The position numbers were made by a program, and so were the translations under genes. DNA of 64,000 nucleotides from Eledone cirrhosa. Lineage: Eukaryota. Shown piece after piece: positions 2,056 to 61,961 of the stretch; within the stretch, counting starts at the first letter, position 1; the number at the start of each line of letters is the position of its first letter. Below the pieces are notes generated by a model that had not been told where the DNA came from, made no database searches, and was given only the letters and a program-made list of their open reading frames with translations. Where the stretch lies: the NCBI GenBank assembly GCA_964016885.1, contig OZ024750.1:3906001-3970000 (forward strand). Direction: 5' to 3'.

Positions 2056-2137
2056 TGTATGTATGTATGTATGTATGTATGTATGTATGTATGTATGTAT
2101 GTATGTATGTATGTGTGTATGTATATATAAAATAAAG

Positions 2138-2320
2138 AAAGTGTGGTAAGATACCAGGTGGACCAGAACGCACCAGGGTACTCGATAAGTAGAGTGGGTA
2201 ATAGGAAAAGAGTCAAGACCCCAACGGCTGAGCTCCGGCCGTTTCGACAGCTAGATCTGAACTGTGGATCTAGCTGTCGAAATGGCTGGAGCTCAGCCGT
2301 CGGGGTCCTGACTCTTTTTC
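2138..2320 (-). mobile_element. Family B fold-back PLE-like remnant (half hammerhead)
   Basis: About 53-bp inverted arms 2205-2320 around loop tgaactgtg, plus the tail shared with 11198-11392; ends in (TA)n. Confidence 0.75.
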
Positions 2321-2985
2321 TATATATATATATATTGTCTTTATAAAAGATTATTTTATAACCCAGTTTGCAGTTTAGGTTTTCAATATCTGTTTAAGTA
2401 TTCAATCAAACATCATGTGCATGTGTATCTATCCACTTGTCCTATACCTCAGTCAAAAAGTCAGCATGATCCTCAATCTGTAAACCTATCCAATCTATTA
2501 TATCAATTGCTCTCCTACTTCATGATATAATAGCTGTTGTGGTTTGCTTGAGCAAAGTTGATTGGAACTACCAACAACTGGCAACTACAGTTGTTGGAGT
2601 CTTCAGTTAATTAGTCATGTCATTTCTCCAATGCAATTATTGGTTTATTTTATATTAACAGTTTACTAATGTATTTAATCTTTGTTTAAAGTTTGTTTGG
2701 TTTATGGCCAGGAGTAGATAGATATTTCAATAAAGACACAACATACTTATGTAAATACTCCACAAAGTTTTATATCCATACATTAACAGAGACAGACACC
2801 AACACCCCCACAACCACACACATGCACACACACATGCACACACACTCAAATGTCAGGCTTTCTTTTATTTTACACAAGATGAACGGAACTTTTTGAAATA
2901 TTAGAAGGGTTGTAATGAAAAGAATTAATGTTAAGACAAATATGAAATTAGTTTGTCCCCTATTTCAGTTCTGGTGAGTGCAGGA

Positions 2986-3509: not shown

Positions 3510-4403
3510 CAAAAACTTAAAATCTTCCAGCATAATTTTATATAAGAACCTTACATTAACTTACTATCTTATTAATGAAAAAATTAATAATTTTAGAAAA
3601 TTCATCCAAATCCTTAATTAATTAATCAAAATACAATGTATGTAATGAGAAATATGGTCACAAAAGACTTAAACATTATAGTTGAATTCTTCATCTTCAC
3701 AATTCTCATTCCATTAGTCAGGTGATGGAATTGAACTTACTTGAAATATTCTAAAGACAGAACTGAAGGAGTAGAGATAAGAGGGAATTGATGAATTTGT
3801 TTTACATCTCGGGAAATGTAACAATATCGATTGAAAGAATAGCTGAAACTTATGTACTTCTATAATGATTTCAGAAAGATGACAATGTTAAAACATTTCT
3901 CTCAGTAACAGAATGCCACACTTATTATGCATTAGTGTTGTAGAATATTGTAACTCTTTCCACTGACCTTCTTCATATAACCACTTTATTCTGTCTTTAA
4001 AATGGTAAAATACATTCTTGACGAAGATCTCTCCAATGAATATAGGAAGAAGTTTAAAGTGATTCTTATCCATGATTTTTATCAATGATGTAAGTGAAAG
4101 AATTAAAATGAGAAACCAAAATGAAGTTGCAGGTATACACCTCTGTTCTACAGCATCTGTTTAATAATAATGGTTTCTGATTTAGGCACAAAGCCAGCAA
4201 TTTTTGGGGAGGGAAAATTAAAGGGTTACATTATTAAATATGTAAAGCTTTATCTGGTCTTGCAGAGGAAAGAGTGCAAAAGGAAGACAAATTAAGTCAG
4301 TTGATCCCCCTTTTTAGTATTCTGTAAAATGAAAGGAAACAGCAGAGAAAAACAAATTATACTTCTTATTGTGTGTGTATGTGCGAGAGATATATGTGTA
4401 TAT

Positions 4404-4620
4404 ATAGTCCCGAGTTGTGTTGGGGGATAACCACAGTTAAAAAAGATACTCAATATATTGGTAGAGTTTAGGCATCTTTTATTATATATATAGAAACAAC
4501 TTATACAAGACTAGAACTGTTTCATTCAAATGAAACAGTTCTAGTCCTTGTAAGGAATTGGTTGTTTATTAAATATGGAATATTCTTTCCTAGTCTATCT
4601 CTACCAATAAGTTGTTGACT
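4404..4620. mobile_element. Family C fold-back PLE-like remnant
   Basis: acaagactagaactgtttcatt-ca-aatgaaacagttctagtccttgt palindrome; same motif as hammerheads 6891 and 61283; left flank matches the reverse complement of 61340-61410. Confidence 0.7.
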
Positions 4621-6189: not shown

Positions 6190-6532
6190 ATCATCATCAT
6201 CATCATCATCATTTTACGTCCACTTTTCCCTGCTTGCAAGGGTGGGACGGGAACTGATTTTGGCTTGATTTCTACAGCTGGATGCCCTTCCTAACACCAA
6301 CCTCATTTACAGTGAGTGCTGGGTGCTTTTTTGCTCTGGCACCTCCACGACCACTTTACAGTGGAATGATAGGGACCCCAGTCCCTATCATCTCATTTCT
6401 ACAGCTGAGTAAACTGGAGCAATGTAGAATAAAGTGTCTTGCTCAAGGAAACAACACATCACCCGGTCTGAGAATTGAACTCAGAACCTTTCGATTGCAA
6501 GGCCAATGCTCTAACCACTAAGCCATATGCCA
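6190..6532 (-). mobile_element. tRNA-derived SINE with CORE-like centre and RTE-type 3' tail
   Basis: Head ggcatatggcttagtggttagagc...gagttcaattc; ccttgagcaagacacttt; 3' end nearly identical to RTE 3' end at 57863-57915; (GAT)n tail. Confidence 0.8.
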
Positions 6533-6639
6533 TGTGTGTATATATATATCTAGCTTACATAGAGCACTCTCCTTTCCTTTACCATTCGTACGGAAATACT
6601 TTATATATATATATATATATGTGTGTGTAGCTAAATCTA

Positions 6640-6841: not shown

Positions 6842-6872
<31 letters not shown>

Positions 6873-6890
6873 AGTTTTAATATAGATGAG

Positions 6891-6937
6891 ATTCTACAGG
6901 ACTAGAACTGTTTCATTCTTTAGAAATCATCAGGAAT
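6891..6937 (-). ncRNA. Type I hammerhead ribozyme motif (family C)
   Basis: attc-CTGATGA-tttctaaagaat-GAA-ACAGttctagtcCTGT-A-gaat; GUA site. Confidence 0.8.
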
Positions 6938-7094: not shown

Positions 7095-7322
7095 ATATAT
7101 ATATATTTGTGTCCTTGAGCAAGACACATTATTTCACATTGCTCCTTCTGCCAGGAGTTGCGACCAGTAGATAGTACAAGCAATAGAAAGACTAATTGAA
7201 ACATTGTTTCTTTTGGTCTGATTTGATGAGGTCCACCCCACCCAGGATCTGGGATCAGAGCAAGAATGAGCAATATATATATATATATACAATATATACA
7301 ATATATATATATATATACAATG

Positions 7323-7723
7323 AATGGAAACTATATTTATAAAACCATATTTATTTTATTATACATATTTCAAGGGCAACCAAGGCAAATTATGGTGCAC
7401 TTTCATCAGATAAAATACAGATTTGTTTTATAAATAAGTATTGACATACCCGGAAAAAAGACAACGTTAACGGTTGGAGCTTCCTGGATAGTGGAGATGT
7501 CAATATTTATTTATAAAACAAATCTGTATTTTATCTGATGAAAGCGCACCATAATTTGCATTGGTTGCTCTTGAAATATGTATAATAAAATAAATATGGT
7601 TTTATAAATATAGTTTCCATTTATTAATATATTGTGTATTTACTCCACTAACCAGTTAAGTGCTTTATATCAGTTATAAAAATTTTTAAGCTTGGTGAAT
7701 CCCAACAAATTAAATATAACCTC

Positions 7724-7727
<4 letters not shown>
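7323..7727 (+). mobile_element. Family A PLE-like pLTR remnant with inverted 5' copy
   Basis: About 125-bp inverted arms 7323-7447 and 7497-7621, plus a unique tail; flanked by (TA)n; homologous to 11414, 30721 and 34151. Confidence 0.8.
7527..7592 (+). ncRNA. Type I hammerhead motif (family A); mirror copy at 7352-7417 on minus
   Basis: tattttat-CTGATGA-aagcgcacca...tggttgctctt-GAA-ATATGTAT-A-ataaaata. Confidence 0.8.
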
Positions 7728-10880: not shown

Positions 10881-10929
10881 GAATGTATATGATATATAAA
10901 TGTGTATATGTATATATATAAGTGCACAT

Positions 10930-11077
10930 GAAGACTAAAATCCAAAGATGGCTCGATAAGGATAAATATATATCAAATATATAAGAACCCTAGAGCAAAT
11001 ATTTGTTTTTAGTTTCAGAAGATCCCGTTAAGGGTGAAAGCAGCGATTCTTTGCTTAAACTTTAATCTGTTATTTTA

Positions 11078-11083
<6 letters not shown>
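10930..11083 (+). mobile_element. Family D PLE-like remnant with variant hammerhead (11011-11061)
   Basis: agttt-CAGAAGA-tccc gttaa gggt-GAA-AGCA...TGCT-T-aaact; related pieces at 14877-14950, 41345-41515, 45385-45515 and 60648-60708. Confidence 0.65.
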
Positions 11084-11141
<58 letters not shown>

Positions 11142-11197
11142 ATGTGTATTTACATATATGTATATGAATGTATATATATTTATATATATATATATAT

Positions 11198-11392
11198 ATA
11201 GGAACGAGTAGGACCCCGACGGCTGAGCTCAAGCCGTTTCGACGGCTAATCTGGTCCAGAATTAGCCGTCGAAACGGCTTGAGCTCAGCCGTCGGGGTCC
11301 TACTCGTTCCTATTACCCACTCTACTACCCTAAGTATTGAGTACTTTGGTGCGTTATGGTCCACCTGGTTCCTTACCACATTTCCTTCGTTA
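11198..11392 (+). mobile_element. Family B fold-back element
   Basis: Perfect 53-bp arms 11198-11250 and 11261-11313; right arm carries GAAACGGC...GCCGTC; conserved about 80-bp tail. Confidence 0.8.
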
Positions 11393-11413
11393 TATATATA
11401 TATATATATATAT

Positions 11414-11830
11414 ATACGATATATTAACAAATGGAAACTATATTTATAAAACCATATTTATTTCATTATACATATTTCAAGGACACCAAGTTAAATTATG
11501 GTGTGCTTTCATCAGAGATAAAATATAATATAGATCAGTTTTATAAATAAATATTGACATACCCTTAAAATAATGCGACATTTCTGTTGGATGCTCTGGA
11601 GCTTCCAACAGAAATGGTCGCATTCTTTTAAGGGTATGTCAATATTTATTTATAAAACTGATCTATATTATATTTTATCTGATGAAAGCACACCATAATT
11701 TAACTTGGTGTCCTTGAAATATGTATAATGAAATAAATATGGTTTTATAAATATAGTTTCCATTTGTTAATATATCGTATTTTTACTCCAATAATTTGTT
11801 GAGTGCTTTATATCAGTTATAAAATATTTT
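11414..11830 (+). mobile_element. Family A fold-back PLE-like remnant
   Basis: Near-perfect about 178-bp arms 11414-11591 and 11604-11780 with a 12-nt loop. Confidence 0.85.
11671..11735 (+). ncRNA. Type I hammerhead motif (family A)
   Basis: tattttat-CTGATGA-aagcacacca...tggtgtcctt-GAA-ATATGTAT-A-atgaaata. Confidence 0.8.
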
Positions 11831-14195: not shown

Positions 14196-14395
14196 TACGT
14201 GAGTCGGCTGAAAAGTTCAAAGGCTGACCAAGATACCCTCATGGAATGACGAAATGAGGTTTATTTTTTCAACATAGTATATGGAAAGAAACAATGCAGT
14301 TAGCTATTAATAGAGTTGAAATTAGTGCATGCAAGATTTCACAGCTCTTGCGTCACTCCTTCATAGTCAGCCTATGAGCTTTTCGACCGACTACT
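14196..14395. mobile_element. mariner-like MITE
   Basis: TIR tacgtgagtcggctgaaaagttcaaaggctgac ... gtcagcctatgagcttttcgaccgact; same family as 16170, 50590 and 52940. Confidence 0.75.
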
Positions 14396-14824: not shown

Positions 14825-14860
<36 letters not shown>

Positions 14861-14943
14861 GTAATAATAATAAATTTGAAGACTAAAATCCAAAGAGGGC
14901 TCGATAAGGATAAAAATATATCAAATATATAAGAGCCGTAGAG

Positions 14944-14981
<38 letters not shown>

Positions 14982-17912: not shown

Positions 17913-17967
17913 AACTCACAACCTCCCGATTGCAAGCCCAATGTTCTAACCACTAAGCCATGCGCCT
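17913..17967 (-). mobile_element. tRNA-SINE head fragment
   Basis: ggcgcatggcttagtggttagaacattgggcttgcaatcgggagg, similar to 6480-6532. Confidence 0.65.
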
Positions 17968-18566
17968 TGACACACACACACACACACACGTACGCATACA
18001 GACACACGCATATATACATATATATATATACAGAGAGAGAGAGAGAGAGAGAAAGAGAGAGGGGAGAGAGAGATATAGAGAGGATATATATAGAGAGAGG
18101 TTTAGTTAGGCCAACCGTCTCGCGCACACGTATGCACGAACACACATACACACATGTATACACACGTATACACACATGTACACAGGCATAAATACACACA
18201 TGTACACAGACATAAATACACATATGTATACACACATGTATACACACGTATACACACATGTACACAGACATAAATACACACATGTACACAGACATAAATA
18301 CACATGTATACATACATGTATACAGACATAAATTGCACACATGTATATAGGCATAAATACACACATATATATATACACACATGTACGCAAACATAAATAC
18401 ATGCGCTGTCACATACTTTTGGAAAATATATATTTTCAACACTTCTGAAAGAGTCAGAACAGTTTAGTTGAAATTCTATAAATAAATAGTTTAAAAAGGT
18501 TACGAGTTAGACGATGGCTCTAGCCTCTTGCTGATGCTGTATCTCTGCCAATTACAAGTGCATTGT

Positions 18567-18923: not shown

Positions 18924-19118
18924 CACCGGTGGATTGGCTGTATCAGTAGAGAGTCGGACGCCATGCATCGCAGCATAGAGTTACGGCCCTTTACAGTCTG
19001 AGTTCAAAAACTGCCGAGTTTAACTTTGCCTTTCATCCTTACGGGGTCCATAAAATAAAGTACCAGTAATGCACTGAGATAATTGCTGGCCTTGTGCCAA
19101 AAGTAGAAACAATTATAA
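18924..19118 (+). mobile_element. Abundant tRNA-derived SINE (Meta-domain-like core)
   Basis: ggattggc...gagttcaaa...aactttgcctttcatccttacggggtc.ataaaataaagtaccag...ccttgtgccaaaagtagaaacaattat. Confidence 0.85.
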
Positions 19119-19299
19119 TTCAATGGGAAAGTAGTTCTGTTCAGCGAACAACTGAAAACGTATCAACGTATTAGACGAGAGATGAATTCACTTTTATTCT
19201 TTGAAAATGTTTGTAAATTGCAGGTGTGGCTACTTTACAATACCTGATAGTAGTCAACAGCGTGGCATACATCCTGTACACGACCTAACGAGAAACCTG

Positions 19300-25839: not shown

Positions 25840-25890
<51 letters not shown>

Positions 25891-26017
25891 CGAACGAAGT
25901 GTGGTAAGGAAATTTTAACCATTGTCTGAACTACAAAATGAGTTCGAACATGCATCTTTCTAGATATCAGTTTTAGATACCATACTCCCTTCTTAAGAAC
26001 TGTTTATATATATAAAT

Positions 26018-29351: not shown

Positions 29352-29522
29352 TAGTTACAGTTCGTTTACAAACCAAACAATTTAAGGTTTAAGAATTTAA
29401 GTTAATAAATGCCTTAAACCTTAAATTCTTTGGTTTGTAAACAAACTGTAACTAAATAAAAGCTCTGCATGATCTCATCATTGCATTGAGCGAAAAAACA
29501 CATAGCAAATGAGTTTACTCTC
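29352..29522 (+). mobile_element. Fold-back remnant with degenerate hammerhead
   Basis: About 48-bp arms 29352-29399 and 29406-29454; gct-CTGcATGA-tctca...tgagc-GAAA...agc. Confidence 0.55.
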
Positions 29523-30609: not shown

Positions 30610-30722
30610 GTATGTGTGTATATATATATATATGTATATATATACATATATGTATGTAAATATATATATATGTATGTATATATATATATATATACATATA
30701 TAAATATATATAAATATATATG

Positions 30723-30787
30723 TATTTTATCTGATGAAGGCATACCATATTTTAATTTGGTATCCCTGAAATATGTATAGTGAAATA
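30723..30787 (+). ncRNA. Type I hammerhead motif (family A; element 30721-30920)
   Basis: tattttat-CTGATGA-aggcatacca...tggtatccct-GAA-ATATGTAT-A-gtgaaata. Confidence 0.8.
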
Positions 30788-30915
30788 AATATGGTTTTAT
30801 AAATATAGTTTCCATTTATTTAATATCGTATATCTACTCCAAAAACTTGTCGAGTGTTTTATATCAGTTATAAAATATTTACTTGTTGTATCCCAACAAT
30901 TTTAAATAGAACTTT

Positions 30916-30949
<34 letters not shown>

Positions 30950-30952
<3 letters not shown>

Positions 30953-31450
30953 ATGAAATGACAGGAGGCTGGATTTGTGTAAATCCTTGAAAGGTTTATT
31001 ATACTATGATCATTTCAATGACCGGGTTCCGTATGAATCCGGTGATATCATCAGGTATTCGAAATATAATACGTGAATGTAATAGGTAAAATCCATGGGG
31101 CTGAAAAACGAGACCCGAGGGCGACCGCTATTCTGTTCCTTCAACCTCAGCCGGTCGCCCTGGATTTTACCTATTACATTCACGTATTATATTTCGAATA
31201 CCTGATGATATCACCGGATTCATACGGAACCCGGTCATTGAAATGATCATAGTATAATAAACCTTTCAAGGATTTACACAAATCCAGCCTCCTGTCATTT
31301 CATTATAATATTTAACTCCGTAATAGCACCACCAACTACAAAAACAAAGACGGTTGAACTGCTTTACGTTGAGTACTCTCTATATTATTGCATTACGATT
31401 GACCATACGGAATAGACCAGCTCTATACAGTGGTGAACCTCAAACCTGAA
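30950..31450 (+). mobile_element. Family F fold-back PLE-like remnant
   Basis: Perfect about 146-bp arms 30950-31095 and 31161-31306, plus tail; (TA)n on both sides. Confidence 0.85.
31198..31255 (+). ncRNA. Type I hammerhead motif (mirror copy in the left arm)
   Basis: atac-CTGATGA-tatcaccgg...ccggtcatt-GAA-ATGATCAT-A-gtat. Confidence 0.8.
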
Positions 31451-31643: not shown

Positions 31644-31650
<7 letters not shown>

Positions 31651-31834
31651 CACATGAAACAATCACAGGGGATAATTTGTAATGGTGAAGTATATTTCTT
31701 TAATGAAATATATACAAGGAAGATCAATCATTTTAAAAGGTATCTATATTTGAAGTTCTAGTTAAACTTTAATTAGGTACCTGTGATTACACACTTTACA
31801 AATTATCCCCTGTGATTGTTTCATGTGTTTATTT
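31644..31834. repeat. 39-bp inverted repeat
   Basis: aaataaacacatgaaacaatcacaggggataatttgtaa and its reverse complement at 31796-31834. Confidence 0.85.
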
Positions 31835-31963
31835 TAGATATATATATATGTCAATAATTTTCTAGTTGATATAAAATGCTCGGATCTATTCATTGGAATC
31901 TTTGAGCTTATTCTACGGTGGATATGGCGTATGTCTCGGACATGACACCCTTAATTTAATTTT

Positions 31964-32000
<37 letters not shown>

Positions 32001-33212: not shown

Positions 33213-33244
<32 letters not shown>

Positions 33245-33246
33245 AA

Positions 33247-33413
33247 CAAAGGTGTGGTAAGATACCAGGTGGACCATAACGCACCAGAGTACTCGATACT
33301 TAGGGTACTAGAGTGGGTAATAGGAAAAGAGTCTGGACACCGACGGCTGAGCTCCGGCCGTTTCGACAGCTAGATATCCGAACTACCTCAGCTGCCGGGG
33401 TCCTGACTCTTTT

Positions 33414-33417
<4 letters not shown>
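33247..33417 (-). mobile_element. Family B element with partial arm deletion
   Basis: Tail and arms homologous to 2138-2320. Confidence 0.75.
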
Positions 33418-33452
<35 letters not shown>

Positions 33453-33454
<2 letters not shown>

Positions 33455-34093
33455 CGATAAATTAACGGAGGCATAGGCCCTCGCTATTCCCTGTAAATAA
33501 TGTGCTCAAAGGAGAAGAGATCCTGAGGTCTTTAAAATACAATACGTTGAAAAGGTAACACACCTGAGAGAGATATACAGTGCGTTATCAATAACAAAGC
33601 GAGGCCTATGCCTCCGTTAATTTATCGTGATATTTCGCTCCTAATAACAGTCTTTCCTATCTCTGTTTGGTTGAGCACACTTCTCTGAGTGGCTTTGGGC
33701 TGTCCTTTCTAGCAGTTCGTCCCTCAGAGGCCACTGGTTCACTGCCCTTAAACACGCTGTGACTTCTCTATCCCACGTGTAGCTGGACAGTCAATTTTAA
33801 AATTCTCTTAGTGTTGTCTGAAATGTATGGCTTTACACACGCTGATGAACCGAGACTAGACCATTTCTTTCAACAAATTATTGGTGAAACATATCTTTGG
33901 ATTAGTGTCTTTGGATTTCTACGTGTGTTATATAGTTATAGAGGTATTTATTTACGCTTTAATTTATATTTTTAATCATCGTGTCTATAGTCTGCCTTTC
34001 ATAGGTTATAGATTCCATACACTGGTGGGTTTTTTCCCTGTATTATTGATAACGCACTGTATATCTCTCTCTGGTGTGTTACCTTTTCAACAT

Positions 34094-34100: not shown

Positions 34101-34150
<50 letters not shown>

Positions 34151-34155
<5 letters not shown>

Positions 34156-34316
34156 ATATTAACAAATGGAAACTATATTGTAAAACCATATTTATTTTAT
34201 TATACATATTTCAAGGGCCACCAAGGCAAATTATGGTGCGCTTTCATCAGATAAAATACAATACAGATTAGTTTTATAAATAAATATTTGTATCCAAACA
34301 AATTAAATATAACCTC

Positions 34317-34320
<4 letters not shown>
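34151..34320. mobile_element. Family A remnant: inverted arm (hammerhead 34193-34258 on minus) joined to tail end
   Basis: Left arm as in 7323-7440, then caaattaaatataacctctgca as in 7706-7727. Confidence 0.75.
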
Positions 34321-34351
<31 letters not shown>

Positions 34352-41045: not shown

Positions 41046-41344
41046 GAAGTGCGGCAACAGCCGAAATATACGATAAAGTTATATCTGTAAAAATACATTA
41101 CAGGTAATGGAGACTATAAATTAACCACTGGGGAGGAAACCAATTTGTTCAACACCGCCCGTGATCAGAGGGGCGGTGTTGTACGAATTTCATCCGACTC
41201 CAGTGGTTAATGTACTCAACTTACGGCATTGTTTTTCATAGTAAAAACGCGTTAAAGTTACTAACTTTAAATTCAAAACTTCCTACCCATTCAGCGGTTC
41301 TAAAAATAGATTGTATGGATATATATATAGTAATAATAATAAAT

Positions 41345-41506
41345 GTGAAGACTAAAATCCGAAAAGGGCTCGATAAGGATATCAAAATATATAAAACCAT
41401 TGAGCAAATATTTATTAAAATAACAGATTAAAGTTTAAGCAAAGAATCATTATGAGTTTCAAAAGATCCCGTTAAGGGTGAAAGCAGAACATTCTTTAAT
41501 CTGTTA

Positions 41507-41515
<9 letters not shown>
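41345..41515 (+). mobile_element. Family D remnant with internal inversion
   Basis: attaaaataacagattaaag ... ctttaatctgttattttaat around tcccgttaagggtGAAAGC. Confidence 0.65.
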
Positions 41516-41558
<43 letters not shown>

Positions 41559-41561
<3 letters not shown>

Positions 41562-41694
41562 GTCTGAACGTCGAAACGGCCGGAGATCAGCCATCGGGGT
41601 CCTGGCTCTTTTTATATTACCCACTCTACTACCCAAAGTATTGAGTACTCTGGTGCGTTATGGTCCACCGGGTATCTCACCACACTCTCTTTGT

Positions 41695-41738
<44 letters not shown>

Positions 41739-41842
41739 TAGGGTGTGGTATAAAAACAGGTAGTCCATAACCCACTAGAGTACTCGATACTTGCGATAGT
41801 AGAGTGGGTAATATGAAAAGATTCAGGACCCCGATGGCTGTA
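41559..41842. mobile_element. Two family B fragments facing each other (41559-41697 on +, 41740-41842 on -)
   Basis: Tail homology to 11310-11392. Confidence 0.7.
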
Positions 41843-44141: not shown

Positions 44142-44147
44142 GTATAG

Positions 44148-44207
44148 TTAGGATCTAGCTGTCGAAACGGCCGGAGCTCAGCCGTCGGGGTCCTGACTCT
44201 TTTCCTA
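44148..44207. mobile_element. Family B single arm
   Basis: ggatctagctgtcgaaacggccggagctcagccgtcggggtcctgactcttttcc-(TA)n. Confidence 0.7.
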
Positions 44208-44226
44208 TATATATATATATATATAT

Positions 44227-45315: not shown

Positions 45316-45389
<74 letters not shown>

Positions 45390-45510
45390 CTTTGCTTAAA
45401 CTTTAATCTGTTATTTAATAAATATTTTCTCTACGGTTTTAATATATATATATCTATATATAATCCTTCTCGAGCCCTCTTCGGATTTTAGTCGTCACAT
45501 TTTTTATTAT

Positions 45511-45593
<83 letters not shown>

Positions 45594-49049: not shown

Positions 49050-49061
49050 CTATATATATAT

Positions 49062-49240
49062 AGGAAAAGTGTCAGGATCTCGACGGCTGAGCTCCGGCCC
49101 TTTTGACAGCTAGATCCGAACGGTGGGAGCTCAGCCGTCAGGGTCCTGACTCTTTTCCTATTACCCACTCTACTACCCTAAGTATTGAGTACTTTGGTGC
49201 GTTATGGTCCACCTGGTTTCTTACCACTCTTTCTTTGTTT
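49062..49240 (+). mobile_element. Family B element (centre deleted)
   Basis: Arms and tail homologous to 11198-11392. Confidence 0.75.
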
Positions 49241-50589: not shown

Positions 50590-50792
50590 ATATGATGGTC
50601 GGTTGAAAAGTTCATAGGTCTACCAAGACACTCATGGAATGATCAAATGAGGTTTATTTTTCAACATAGTCCATGGAAAGAAACAATGAAGTTATTAATA
50701 AGAAGAATTAAAAATAATGTATGCAAGATTTCACATCTCTAGCATATCAATCCTTCATAGTCAGCCTATGAACCTTTCAGCCTACCCTCGCA
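50590..50792. mobile_element. mariner-like MITE (partial second copy at 50470-50585)
   Basis: TIRs ggtcggttgaaaagttcatagg and cctatgaacctttcagcctaccctcg. Confidence 0.75.
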
Positions 50793-50808
50793 CATATTGA
50801 AAAGTTAC

Positions 50809-51214
50809 CTGGTGTTGTGCTGCTTATTCGATATTTCGAGACGCTCCTTCCAAATGTATATTTTGGTGGGGTTGGTAATTTAAGACCATAGCCTGAATCG
50901 AGACGATAGGTTGCTGGACCTGGTGATAGATGAGGAATGCGGTATTTAGGGCGGGCTCCTATATAGGTGTTAGGACAGGTAAATTTGCCATCCCGATAGA
51001 CTGTTGGATTATGTAAATTGTATTTTGGTCCTGGTGTAATGAACTTAGGAATTTCTTCAAGTCTTCTACCAATGTAGCATGCTGGTTTCTTTGGATAAAG
51101 ACTGTTCGGGTCATGATTCTCAAATCCTAGTAATGGTCGCAAAGCATAAATAGGTCCTGGACTTGTGAACATGGCTGATATAGGGCCACGAGGAATGGTC
51201 GGCTGGAACGTCAT
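50809..51214 (-). CDS. ODF3: ODF3/CIMAP1-like (SHIPPO1 PGP repeats), coding exon 1
   Basis: MTFQPTIPRGPISAMFTSPGPIYALRPLLGFENHD...TPGPKY...SPGPATY...TTP; acceptor tttag at 51240, donor G|gtaact at 50809; phase 1. Confidence 0.93.
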
Positions 51215-51722
51215 TTTGGGGAAGACTTGAAATAGAACCTAAATAAAAAAAAAAAAATTTTTAATCAGATATATAACATCGTTATAGATAAAAAAAAAAT
51301 TTTTATTGCAGGTGCTTCGTTTCTTATGAGGGCACCTAACACAGTGGTGAGGGAATAAAAATCAGCCATCAGATCGTAGGTTCAGTTTCTGGACAGAGCG
51401 GTTCGTTGTTGTGTTTTTCAACAGGACAATTCTTTTCATGATATCACTGGAGATCCTATCATTATAACACACCATTGGAAACTCCCAATGAGACAAGAAT
51501 CTTTCCGGAGGCCAGCTAAACCTACATAGGTGTGAGCTGGGAATTTCATATTAATTCCTCATTCTTAGATATTAATTCCTTTACCGTTATTTCTCAATAT
51601 GCAAGTTTCTAGTAGTGAAACTAATGAGGGCTTTCTAAAGAAGAAGAAGAAGAAGAAGAAGAAGAAGAAGAATCGCAAATAAATGGATTATATTAACATA
51701 TTCAAATAAAATATTAACTTAC

Positions 51723-52939: not shown

Positions 52940-53205
52940 TACGAGGGTCGGCTGAAAGGTTCATAGGCTGACTATGAAGGAGTGATGCTAGAGCTGTGAA
53001 ATCTTGTGTACATAAATTTCAACTTTTCTTCTTAATAACTGCTTTGTTTCTTTTCAGGGACTATGTAGAAAAATAAACCAGATTTGGTCTTTCCATGAGA
53101 GTATCTTGTCTTCTTGGTCATTGTTTCTTTCCAGGGACTATGTTGAAAATAAACCTCATTTGGTCATTCCATGAGAGTATCTTGGTCAGCCTATGAACTT
53201 TTCAG
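52940..53205. mobile_element. mariner-like MITE with internal duplication
   Basis: TAcgagggtcggctgaaaggttcataggctgac ... gtcagcctatgaacttttcag. Confidence 0.8.
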
Positions 53206-53684: not shown

Positions 53685-53689
<5 letters not shown>

Positions 53690-53873
53690 AAAAAGTATGA
53701 CCCCGACGGCAGAGCTCAAACCGTTTCGACGGCTATTTCTGGAAATAGCCGTCGAAATGGCTTGAGCTCTGCCGTCGGGGTCATACTTTTTCCTATTACC
53801 CACTCTACTAGCCTAAGTATTGAGTACTCTGGTGCGTTATGGTCCATCGGGTCCCTTACCACAATTCCTTTGT

Positions 53874-53874
<1 letters not shown>
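53685..53874 (+). mobile_element. Family B fold-back element
   Basis: Arms 53685-53739 and 53742-53796, plus tail. Confidence 0.8.
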
Positions 53875-53908
<34 letters not shown>

Positions 53909-60408: not shown

Positions 60409-60437
60409 GTATCTATCTATTTACCTGAATGGAGTAA

Positions 60438-60634
60438 GTAATAGGAGTAAGTAAGACCCCGACGGCTGAGCTCAAGCCGTTTCGACGGCTAATTCAGTAC
60501 AGAATTAGCCGTCGAAACGGCTTGAGCTCAGCCGTCGGGGTCTTACTTACTCCTATTACCCACTCTACTACCCTAAGTATTGAGTACTTTGGTGCGTTAT
60601 GGTCCACCTGGTTCCTTACCACTTTTCCCTCGCT
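60438..60634 (+). mobile_element. Family B fold-back element
   Basis: Perfect about 58-bp arms within 60438-60559, plus tail. Confidence 0.8.
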
Positions 60635-60705
60635 ATATATATATATATTTATTAAAATAACAGATTAAAGTTTAAGCAAAGAATCGCTGCTTTCACCCTT
60701 AACGG

Positions 60706-60755
<50 letters not shown>

Positions 60756-61154: not shown

Positions 61155-61333
<179 letters not shown>

Positions 61334-61961
61334 TTTCTATATTAAATATTTATACTCTGCTTTGTATTGAGTATCTTACTTACTGTGGTTACCCCCGATT
61401 GAACGCGGGATAAACATATATATATATATATCTGTTGAGACGTATACAACAACCCTTTATGGTTACTTTCCCTCCTAAAACAGGAATTTCTCTGGTGGTC
61501 CCCATGACAAGCTTCCCGCTAACCATCGGATCTTTTGGGCGGGAACGTTGTGTGGCTGGCTGCCCTTCCTGATACCAGCACTTTAGGTCGCCTCATTCTA
61601 GACTCGGGATTACGATGTACCTATCTAAACCTTTTGTACACAGCCCTCTGTTCTAACATAATCTATGTGTTTATTTCATGTTTGAATAATGGAATTATTG
61701 GTTACAGGTTTCCAGCAGGTTGACTTTCTGTTGTCGAGAGAGATCTGCAACTTGAGATGAAGGAAGTGTCAACAACTCGCGGGGGCGAAGGTTGGGTCTT
61801 TTTTTTACAGAATTAAATATACCCTCACATTCATTCTATGGTCTTCGAAGTTAAAACAGCGACATGGAAAATTTTATTTTCCGAGGGATGCTTTCTAGAT
61901 GAAGGGAGATTAAAAAAATATACTTAACGTAACAAACTACCCCCAAAAAATAATACATTAA

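What the first reader, a model, noticed from the sequence alone, without database searches (positions are those of the whole stretch)
11198..11392. Family B: palindromes folded back at hammerhead loop II, erasing the CUGANGA core
Seen: the right arm reads helix II 3' strand, GAA, ACGGC(ttgagctca)GCCGT, C, ggggtc, which is the GAAA/helix III/GUC half of a hammerhead. Where CUGANGA should be, the left arm carries the exact reverse complement of that half, and the palindrome centre is loop II. At least 8 copies occur (2138, 11198, 33247, 41559, 44148, 49062, 53685, 60438) and none retains CUGANGA. Copy-specific bases are mirrored in both arms, and most arms join (TA)n at the same cc|tat position. 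Inference: cDNA snaps back at helix II and self-primes second-strand synthesis, or the palindromic form propagates as its own non-autonomous element. The retained half equals the substrate strand of a trans (I/II format) hammerhead.
Basis: partly seen in the sequence, partly recalled or inferred. Interest (0 to 1): 0.8.

Follow-up and report, generated by a model that had tools for sequence, protein, structure and literature searches.

The report
Inverted Penelope-retrotransposon ends with half hammerheads
These short DNA palindromes in an octopus-like genome are likely the end pieces of a Penelope-like retrotransposon, inserted as two head-to-head copies that likely stop just short of the ribozyme core; the layout is known, but the copies suggest that two target-primed cDNAs, rather than one folded-back cDNA, make it.

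Summary
The 11198-11392 element is real: a 57-bp-arm palindrome in (TA)n whose right arm reads GAAA / helix III / GUC and runs on into a 79-nt tail. No copy has CUGANGA. Of the 8 named copies only 4 are near-symmetric palindromes; 2 are lopsided and 2 are single arms. The mirrored bases are common subfamily alleles, not copy-specific. Public reads show unfolded forms of both subfamilies. One has a natural 9-bp helix II capped by 33 nt; junctions fall in the 3' side of that cap, not at its apex. The core was not visible in the 30 letters shown. The (TA)n target, half hammerhead, two 3' ends and a tail stem shared with published consensi point to a Hydra-clade Penelope-like element. Its inverted, tailed layout is published, and so is self-priming as an explanation. 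New here: a covarying RCTC...GAGY tail stem beside the short end in 6 of 7 families, and copies (49062, 53685, 44148, sister 34150) that one snap-back cannot make without later deletion. Best reading: two target-primed cDNAs from one RNA stall in the large hairpin and join. A trans-hammerhead role is unlikely.

The parts
11170..11197 (.). (TA)n-rich target, left flank
11198..11254 (-). Short inverted arm: reverse complement of the right arm, from the junction zone to CC|TAT, where it runs into (TA)n
11251..11259 (.). Inversion junction; differs in each of 6 inverted copies; lies in the 3' side of the 33-nt segment that caps helix II in unfolded forms
   Evidence: (loose ends)
11260..11270 (+). 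Likely helix II 3' strand; the 9-nt complement of its common variant stands 45-53 nt upstream of GAAA in unfolded B1 contigs
   Evidence: table 7; read by eye
11271..11293 (+). Hammerhead 3' half: GAAA, helix III with a palindromic loop, GTC cleavage triplet
   Evidence: Hydra-clade motif table
11294..11300 (+). Putative helix I 3' strand (its 5' partner in the parent was not seen)
   Evidence: inference
11309..11313 (+). Short 3' end CC|TAT, likely an internal reverse-transcription start
   Evidence: 5 of 6 short arms and single arm 44148 end here
11314..11392 (+). Tail present on one arm only, ending in (TA)n
11319..11342 (+). Tail stem ACTC...GAGT, shared with sister families and with published Hydra-2_Amil and Hydra-2_Ajap 3' ends
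11393..11414 (.). (TA)n target, right flank
2130..2323 (-). Family B2, near-symmetric palindrome with tail
33244..33418 (-). Family B2, lopsided: tailed arm reaches about 20 nt above GAAA, short arm stops in helix III
41559..41695 (+). Family B2, tailed single arm; possible 11-nt inverted remnant at its 5' end (weak match)
41744..41840 (-). Family B, 5'-truncated tailed single arm, tail-to-tail with 41559 across a (TA)n run
44145..44208 (+). Family B2, single arm that ends at CC|TAT, with no tail and no inverted partner
49060..49240 (+). Family B2, lopsided: the short arm holds about 17 upstream bases that the tailed arm lacks
53685..53875 (+). Family B1 palindrome with tail; short arm reaches at least 2 nt further upstream than the tailed arm
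60432..60635 (+). Family B1 palindrome with tail; short arm ends in an 11-nt duplication joined to non-TA DNA
25888..25911 (-). 24-nt stub of the family B tail end before (TA)n
34140..34322 (-). Comparator, sister family C: 33-nt inverted tail end joined head-to-head to a 140-nt short-ended arm with the whole hammerhead; the two pieces do not overlap
   Evidence: 31 of 33 identical, score 56; best of 500 shuffles 37
4400..4600 (-). Comparator, sister family F: palindrome centred at helix II, core lost; unfolded copies at 6869 and 61287 keep CCTGATGA

Best explanation
Family B is likely the 3' end (hammerhead region plus tail) of a Hydra-clade Penelope-like retrotransposon, and each palindrome is likely made at insertion by two target-primed cDNAs that join at their 3' ends. 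Steps: (1) the element-encoded enzyme cuts both strands of a (TA)n target (shown in vitro for another PLE; inferred here). (2) One strand primes at the RNA's tail end, the other at the internal CC|TAT site, which a conserved RCTC...GAGY stem would position (the two ends and the stem are seen; their role is inferred). (3) Both cDNAs copy the same RNA upstream, the second displacing the first (inferred), so arms share subfamily alleles and each insertion has one tail. (4) Both stall in the long two-tier hairpin that stands in for helix II (hairpin read from loose ends; stalling inferred). (5) They join through short self-complementary patches. The core, expected 5' of the hairpin, is never reached, so its loss is a by-product of 5' truncation. 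Identity as PLE ends is about 0.88; this joining mechanism about 0.55.
For: Identity. (TA)n target; 5'-variable and 3'-fixed copies. Published Hydra elements target (TA)n, carry a hammerhead with a real helix III near the 3' end, and end either about 30 or about 90-120 nt after helix I; Penelope-13_HM has a 5'-truncated inverted copy. Hydra-2_Amil and Hydra-2_Ajap tails hold the same stem. The host's ODF3-like ORF has its best hits in Octopus (56%, 53%), and a Hydra family is published from Octopus bimaculoides. Mechanism. 44148 and 6869 end at the short site with no inverted partner. 49062 and 53685 have upstream bases only in the short arm. 34150 joins a 33-nt inverted tail end to a non-overlapping 140-nt short-ended arm. 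All 13 inverted elements examined have one short and one tailed arm. The anole PLE cuts and extends both strands, has two RT start sites bounding the tail, and is predicted to be a dimer (PMC11167929). Four copies of both subfamilies (2138, 33247, 44148, 60438) stop at the homologous AGT about 18-20 nt above GAAA.
Against: No CUGANGA-bearing parent of B was seen; only 30 loose letters are displayed. No PLE ORF remnant was found in the window (60 of 127 candidate peptides scanned; motif scan), so RT clade membership is untested. Among contigs spanning the centre in run X1, letters of the 60438-type centre dominate (11251 C>T 110k/138k, 11252 T>C 81k/138k, 11253 G>A 108k/160k summed depth). That fits a hotspot, but also a palindromic master. 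60438 fits a plain snap-back at a 6-7-bp local hairpin. Deletion after insertion could explain lopsided copies. The stem motif was defined after seeing the data. Families D, E and H show no recognisable hammerhead near the end. Strand displacement on one RNA is not shown for any PLE in what I read.
Confidence: 0.55

Rival explanations
1. One cDNA primed at the tail folds back on itself near helix II and self-primes the second arm, which is then cut or joined at CC|TAT. This is the first reader's model, and close to the published self-priming hypothesis for Penelope.
For: It explains mirrored alleles and one tail per insertion. 60438 has a centre flanked by a natural 6-7-bp inverted repeat. In 33247 the tailed arm reaches further, as required. 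Published as a hypothesis (PMC3846280); endonuclease resolution is proposed for the tail (PMC8557442).
Against: 0 of 6 inverted copies keep the 33-nt natural cap, so helix II itself is not the fold point. 49062, 53685 and 34150 need later one-sided deletions of about 20, 2 and over 200 nt. Short ends occur without any partner arm (44148, 6869).
Confidence: 0.25
2. Palindromic copies are themselves transcribed and retrotransposed as a short non-autonomous element. The short end is inherited from a donor's (TA)n junction and lopsided copies come from RT jumps across the hairpin.
For: Very high abundance (22,041 contigs in X1; 26,296 of 12.5 million reads read in X21), a fixed short end, and one recurring centre type in X1 contigs. 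The tail stem needed for mobilisation would be retained.
Against: 6 of 6 inverted copies in the window have different junctions, including 3 that share B2 alleles. Mirrored alleles in several subfamilies need repeated regeneration or conversion. Unfolded forms are common: 1,481 X21 reads share one unfolded B2 upstream sequence, though RAD reads may come from few loci. The same short end recurs in sister families and in published consensi.
Confidence: 0.14
3. The retained half serves as the substrate strand of a trans (I/II format) hammerhead, cut by parent RNA.
For: Its layout equals that strand. In a lone right arm helix III forms with probability about 0.3.
Against: In the palindrome the half is locked in the long hairpin: -127.6 kcal/mol against -34.1 for the hammerhead-like fold; helix III probability about 1e-23. 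No enzyme strand was seen. Hammerhead mutants did not affect insertion in the anole PLE in vitro.
Confidence: 0.03
4. A MITE or Helitron end with a natural hairpin; the hammerhead likeness is chance.
For: Inverted arms in TA context, so a TA duplication cannot be excluded.
Against: The inverted repeat does not bound the element: a 68-79-nt tail lies outside it. Single arms are 5'-truncated with fixed 3' ends. Unfolded upstream forms exist. Tail and GUC spacing match a sister family with a whole hammerhead and published Hydra PLEs. The tail does not end in CTRR (Helitron rule recalled).
Confidence: 0.03

Closest known systems
Hydra-clade Penelope-like elements (Craig et al. 2021, PMC8557442), e.g. 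Hydra-2_Amil, Hydra-2_Ajap, Hydra-1_Obim, Penelope-13_HM
   Same: (TA)n target; hammerhead near the 3' end with a 3-5-bp helix III and (T/C)GAAAC; short and long 3' ends; inverted 5'-truncated copy; RCTC...GAGY tail stem in 2 of 6 new consensi, partial in 2, and 2 end before it.
   Different: Family B copies are under 200 nt with no ORF; the helix II region is a long two-tier hairpin; junctions cluster 12-20 nt above GAAA so the core is absent; the tail (68-79 nt) is longer than the 30-40 nt quoted for PLEs.
Penelope inverted pLTR with palindromic junction and optional tail (Adineta vaga; Arkhipova et al. 2013, PMC3846280)
   Same: Head-to-head inverted copy, palindrome at the junction, tail on one arm; self-priming proposed.
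   Different: That paper proposes self-priming on an antisense template. Copies here (49062, 34150, 44148) fit two independent starts better.
PAc (Poseidon of Anolis) in vitro system (Frangieh et al. 2024, PMC11167929)
   Same: Two RT start sites bounding the tail, both target strands cut and extended, AT-rich target, uncleaved RNA used as template.
   Different: Different clade; its start lies in an AC-rich stem-loop inside the ORF; the parts I read do not explain inverted copies.
L1 twin priming (recalled, from no call)
   Same: Two target-primed cDNAs from one RNA joined by microhomology give a 5' inversion; 34150 has this non-overlapping form.
   Different: In family B the two cDNAs overlap, giving palindromes, and the second start is at a fixed site.
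Non-LTR retrozymes (bioRxiv 10.64898/2026.07.22.740005)
   Same: Non-coding, PLE-related, type I hammerhead context.
   Different: Retrozymes are tandem repeats with a whole hammerhead in each unit; family B is dispersed, inverted and core-less.

Membership tests
Hydra-clade PLE | Insertion into (TA)n | tested here: met
   Flanks of the copies; the left end of 60438 is an exception
Hydra-clade PLE | Canonical hammerhead near the 3' end | tested here: inconclusive
   3' half present at the expected distance; natural 9-bp helix II partner in unfolded contigs; core beyond the 30 letters shown; parent-specific pattern absent from metagenome contigs, as was the family itself
Hydra-clade PLE | RT with C-terminal GIY-YIG endonuclease, CxCX5C linker, no CCHH | not testable with these tools
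   No genome held; no ORF remnant in the window
PLE in general | 5' truncation with an inverted 5'-truncated copy adjacent | tested here: met
   6 inverted copies and 4 single-arm pieces among 10 sites
PLE in general | Tail extension at only one end | tested here: met
   6 of 6 inverted B copies; 13 of 13 inverted elements examined
Naiad PLE | (TA)n target, no canonical hammerhead, N-terminal endonuclease | tested here: inconclusive
   Target fits; three short B motifs were absent from the held (cut) supplement with Naiad consensi; cephalopod Naiads are described as old remnants while many B reads are 95-99% alike
Type I hammerhead ribozyme | CUGANGA core plus GAAA and NUH in one RNA | tested here: not met
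   No core at any B copy; no Rfam hit
Non-LTR retrozyme | Tandem units each with a whole hammerhead | tested here: not met
   Copies are dispersed and inverted
MITE | Terminal inverted repeats bound the element | tested here: not met
   68-79-nt tail outside the inverted repeat; single arms
Helitron | 3' hairpin followed by CTRR (recalled) | tested here: not met
   Tail ends in ...GTTA then (TA)n

The most novel reading that the evidence does not exclude
The core-less hairpin-plus-tail unit has become a mobile element of its own: a roughly 195-nt palindromic retroelement that keeps only the conserved tail stem needed to recruit a Hydra-clade PLE enzyme, has shed the ribozyme core, and seeds a cephalopod genome with very many 55-bp double-stranded-RNA hairpins.
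Probability: 0.14. Interest if true: 0.72.

Novelty: new variant of a known kind. Interest (0 to 1): 0.48.

Why it matters
How PLEs form their inverted, one-tailed insertions is named as an open problem (PMC8557442). This window gives a small, very abundant natural product series that separates the models: single snap-back, two target-primed cDNAs, or a palindromic master each predict different junction patterns. It also gives a candidate cis element, the covarying RCTC...GAGY stem beside the short end, shared by cephalopod, coral and sea-cucumber families and easy to mutate in an in vitro PLE assay. It further suggests that the hammerhead core is dispensable in most inserted copies. If transcribed, the palindromes would be long double-stranded RNA, possible substrates for editing or silencing; this is speculation, with no RNA data here. 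The layout itself is not new.

Tried and rejected
No whole genome is held, so no genome-wide junction map or parent search was possible. A parent-specific pattern and a family pattern found nothing in metagenome contigs or viral contigs; these collections do not hold the family, so this says nothing about the parent. Two 14-letter motifs from the unfolded upstream forms gave 0 and 3 window matches, none beside a B arm. Run search: no RNA holder listed. The depth dip at the centre was rejected as evidence of variable centres: assemblers break at hairpins, and the X21 molecule ends at 11250 and 11260 coincide with AATT sites, likely a RAD enzyme cut (inference). MAFFT alignments of tails did not align the stems across families, so no pair count was run on them; stems were located by pattern instead. 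The enrichment (26 against 9.7 +/- 3.7, maximum 25) was set aside as inflated by repeated B copies. Dropped from the 13-element set, out of 18 local inverted repeats: 41588-41840 (two tailed arms tail-to-tail), 7819, 20412, 41117, 58722. A Pfam scan of 60 of 127 candidate peptides gave no RT or GIY-YIG. Earlier scan findings: four look-ups returned nothing. Searches for a published two-cDNA model or the tail stem listed none; the library lacks most subscription papers, and the Craig supplement was cut when stored.

Full report
Setting. The window is AT-rich animal DNA full of microsatellites. An ODF3-like ORF at 50780-51238 (-) has its best hits in Octopus vulgaris (56%) and O. bimaculoides (53%), so the host is likely a cephalopod. 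No whole genome is held.

Observation. 11198-11313 is a palindrome with 46 perfect base pairs. The right arm reads GAAA, a 5-bp helix III, GTC and GGGGTCC and continues 79 nt to (TA)n. BLAST finds 10 family sites: the 8 named, 41744 and a stub at 25888. None has CTGANGA. Two subfamilies exist: B1 (11198, 53685, 60438) and B2 (the rest). Of the 8 named, 4 are near-symmetric palindromes, 2 lopsided, 2 single arms. Arms cluster within a copy in B1 (0, 0, 2 differences; 4-5 between copies) but not in B2 (5, 4, 9; 2-5 to 44148). The mirrored B1 bases are frequent alleles in reads, so they mark subfamilies.

Reads. Of 23 listed runs, 16 hold some of the stretch. I laid 4: 22,041 contigs in X1, 26,296 reads in X21, 3 contigs in X4 and 4 in X7. 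X1 may be the window's own sample. Loose ends show unfolded upstream sequence. For B1 it appears in X1, X4 and X7 (three studies); the X4 contig has 127 letters that fit nothing in the stretch, so it has no left arm. Its visible 30 letters contain CGGCTATTT, the exact complement of the AAATAGCCG variant before TCGAAAC. Helix II is thus natural, 9 bp, capped by 33 nt that can form a second stem (by eye). For B2, 1,481 X21 reads share a homologous unfolded upstream sequence (agreement 0.78). CTGANGA is in neither 30-letter view; it would lie just beyond the B1 view. The parent core is therefore neither shown nor excluded.

Junctions. All 6 inverted copies have different centres. The four near-symmetric ones lie 12-20 nt above GAAA, on the 3' side of the cap. 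None keeps the 33-nt cap, which a snap-back at helix II would leave. In 33247 and 60438 the tailed arm reaches further upstream; in 49062 (about 17 nt) and 53685 (at least 2 nt) the short arm does. Against independence: in X1, contigs spanning the centre mostly carry the 60438-type letters, which fits a hotspot at a 6-7-bp local inverted repeat or a palindromic master.

Sister families. At least six other families share the anatomy. C (7319, 11415) and I (30947) keep CTGATGA in both arms, with centres far upstream, so inversion is not tied to helix II in general. F has a palindrome at helix II without the core (4504) and unfolded copies with it (6869, 61287). All 13 inverted elements examined have one short and one tailed arm (5 of the 18 local inverted repeats were left out, see Tried and rejected). 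A stem RCTC...GAGY starts 0-12 nt after the shared end in 6 of 7 families and at 28 nt in the seventh; the background chance of a start in a 12-nt slot is 0.7%. The outer pair is A-T in 5 window families (including single-arm 26790) and G-C in 3, never mixed (p 0.018, relatedness ignored, motif defined after the fact). Copy 34150 joins a 33-nt inverted tail end (31 of 33 identical; score 56, best of 500 shuffles 37) to a non-overlapping 140-nt short-ended arm.

Known kin. Craig et al. 2021 (PMC8557442; passages, section 11, supplement parts 1, 2, 52, 53) describe PLE insertions with an adjacent inverted 5'-truncated copy and a one-sided tail, and the Hydra clade: (TA)n target, canonical hammerhead near the 3' end, one family in Octopus. 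Of its 6 new consensi, 2 carry the same tail stem with G-C (read by eye; p 0.004 when added), 2 a partial one, and 2 stop at the short end. Arkhipova et al. 2013 (PMC3846280; parts 1-3 of 5 and passages) report palindromes at inverted junctions and propose self-priming. Frangieh et al. 2024 (PMC11167929; parts 1-2 of 4) show two RT starts bounding the tail, extension of both target strands, and no need for ribozyme cleavage. Cervera and de la Pena 2014 (PMC4209133; parts 1-2 of 4) describe PLE hammerheads with long helix II and palindromic loop 3. The retrozyme preprint was read in part 1 of 5.

Mechanism. Short ends without a partner (44148, 6869), upstream bases found only in the short arm, and 34150 are what two independently primed cDNAs give; one snap-back needs later deletions for each. 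One tail per insertion and shared alleles point to one RNA used from two starts. Both cDNAs likely stall in the large hairpin and join through short complementary patches, so the core is lost by truncation. Shown: ends, tail stem, junctions, unfolded forms. Inferred: enzyme, priming, displacement, stalling. The trans-substrate idea fails for palindromes (helix III probability about 1e-23; -127.6 against -34.1 kcal/mol).

Verdict. A real, very abundant feature that works like the known inverted, tailed PLE insertion and is probably of the Hydra clade; RT membership is untested. New are the tight junction zone that removes the core, the cross-family tail stem, and genomic support for two-cDNA joining. 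My searches listed no paper on these, within a library that lacks most subscription journals. Interest 0.48.

Noticed in passing
7319-7726, 11415-11829, 30698-30918, 34140-34322: Family C: AT-rich hammerhead-bearing element with the same short-arm/tail anatomy, core kept in both arms; one copy sits directly beside the finding in the same (TA)n run.
   Followed up: partly
4400-4600 (-), 6869-6935 (-), 61287-61410 (+): Family F: Hydra-type hammerhead; one palindromic core-less copy and two unfolded copies that start right at the core.
   Followed up: partly
30947-31450, 31644-31965, 29354-29522, 33455-33700: Four more inverted elements with one tail and the RCTC...GAGY stem; only 30947 shows a hammerhead core near the end. 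In 31644 a GAAAC/helix-like motif lies on the opposite strand to the tail.
   Followed up: partly
21036 (+), 29536 (+), 32926 (+), 48015 (-), 26790 (-), 7902 (+), 32182 (+): Further minimal hammerhead motifs; the 21036/29536 family ends in (CA)n and the 29536 copy is truncated just after the core; 26790 ends in (TC)n and has the tail stem. Rfam gathering thresholds miss all of them.
   Followed up: no
60432-60452: The short arm ends in a perfect 11-nt duplication joined to non-TA DNA, like an abortive start followed by re-annealing.
   Followed up: partly
10929-11081, 14860-14946, 41329-41511, 45389-45513, 60648-60707: Another TA-flanked family with rearranged pieces; 3 of its 5 copies lie next to family B copies in shared (TA)n runs.
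   Followed up: no
18927-19123 and 13 other sites: Abundant SINE-like family (14 sites); a second, tRNA-like repeat at 6468-6534 and 17913-17969.
   Followed up: no
50780-51238 (-): ODF3-like (PF07004) coding stretch with best hits in Octopus.
   Followed up: partly
14203-14391, 50598-50790, 52942-53205: About 190-nt element with terminal inverted repeats, MITE-like.
   Followed up: no
   Followed up: no
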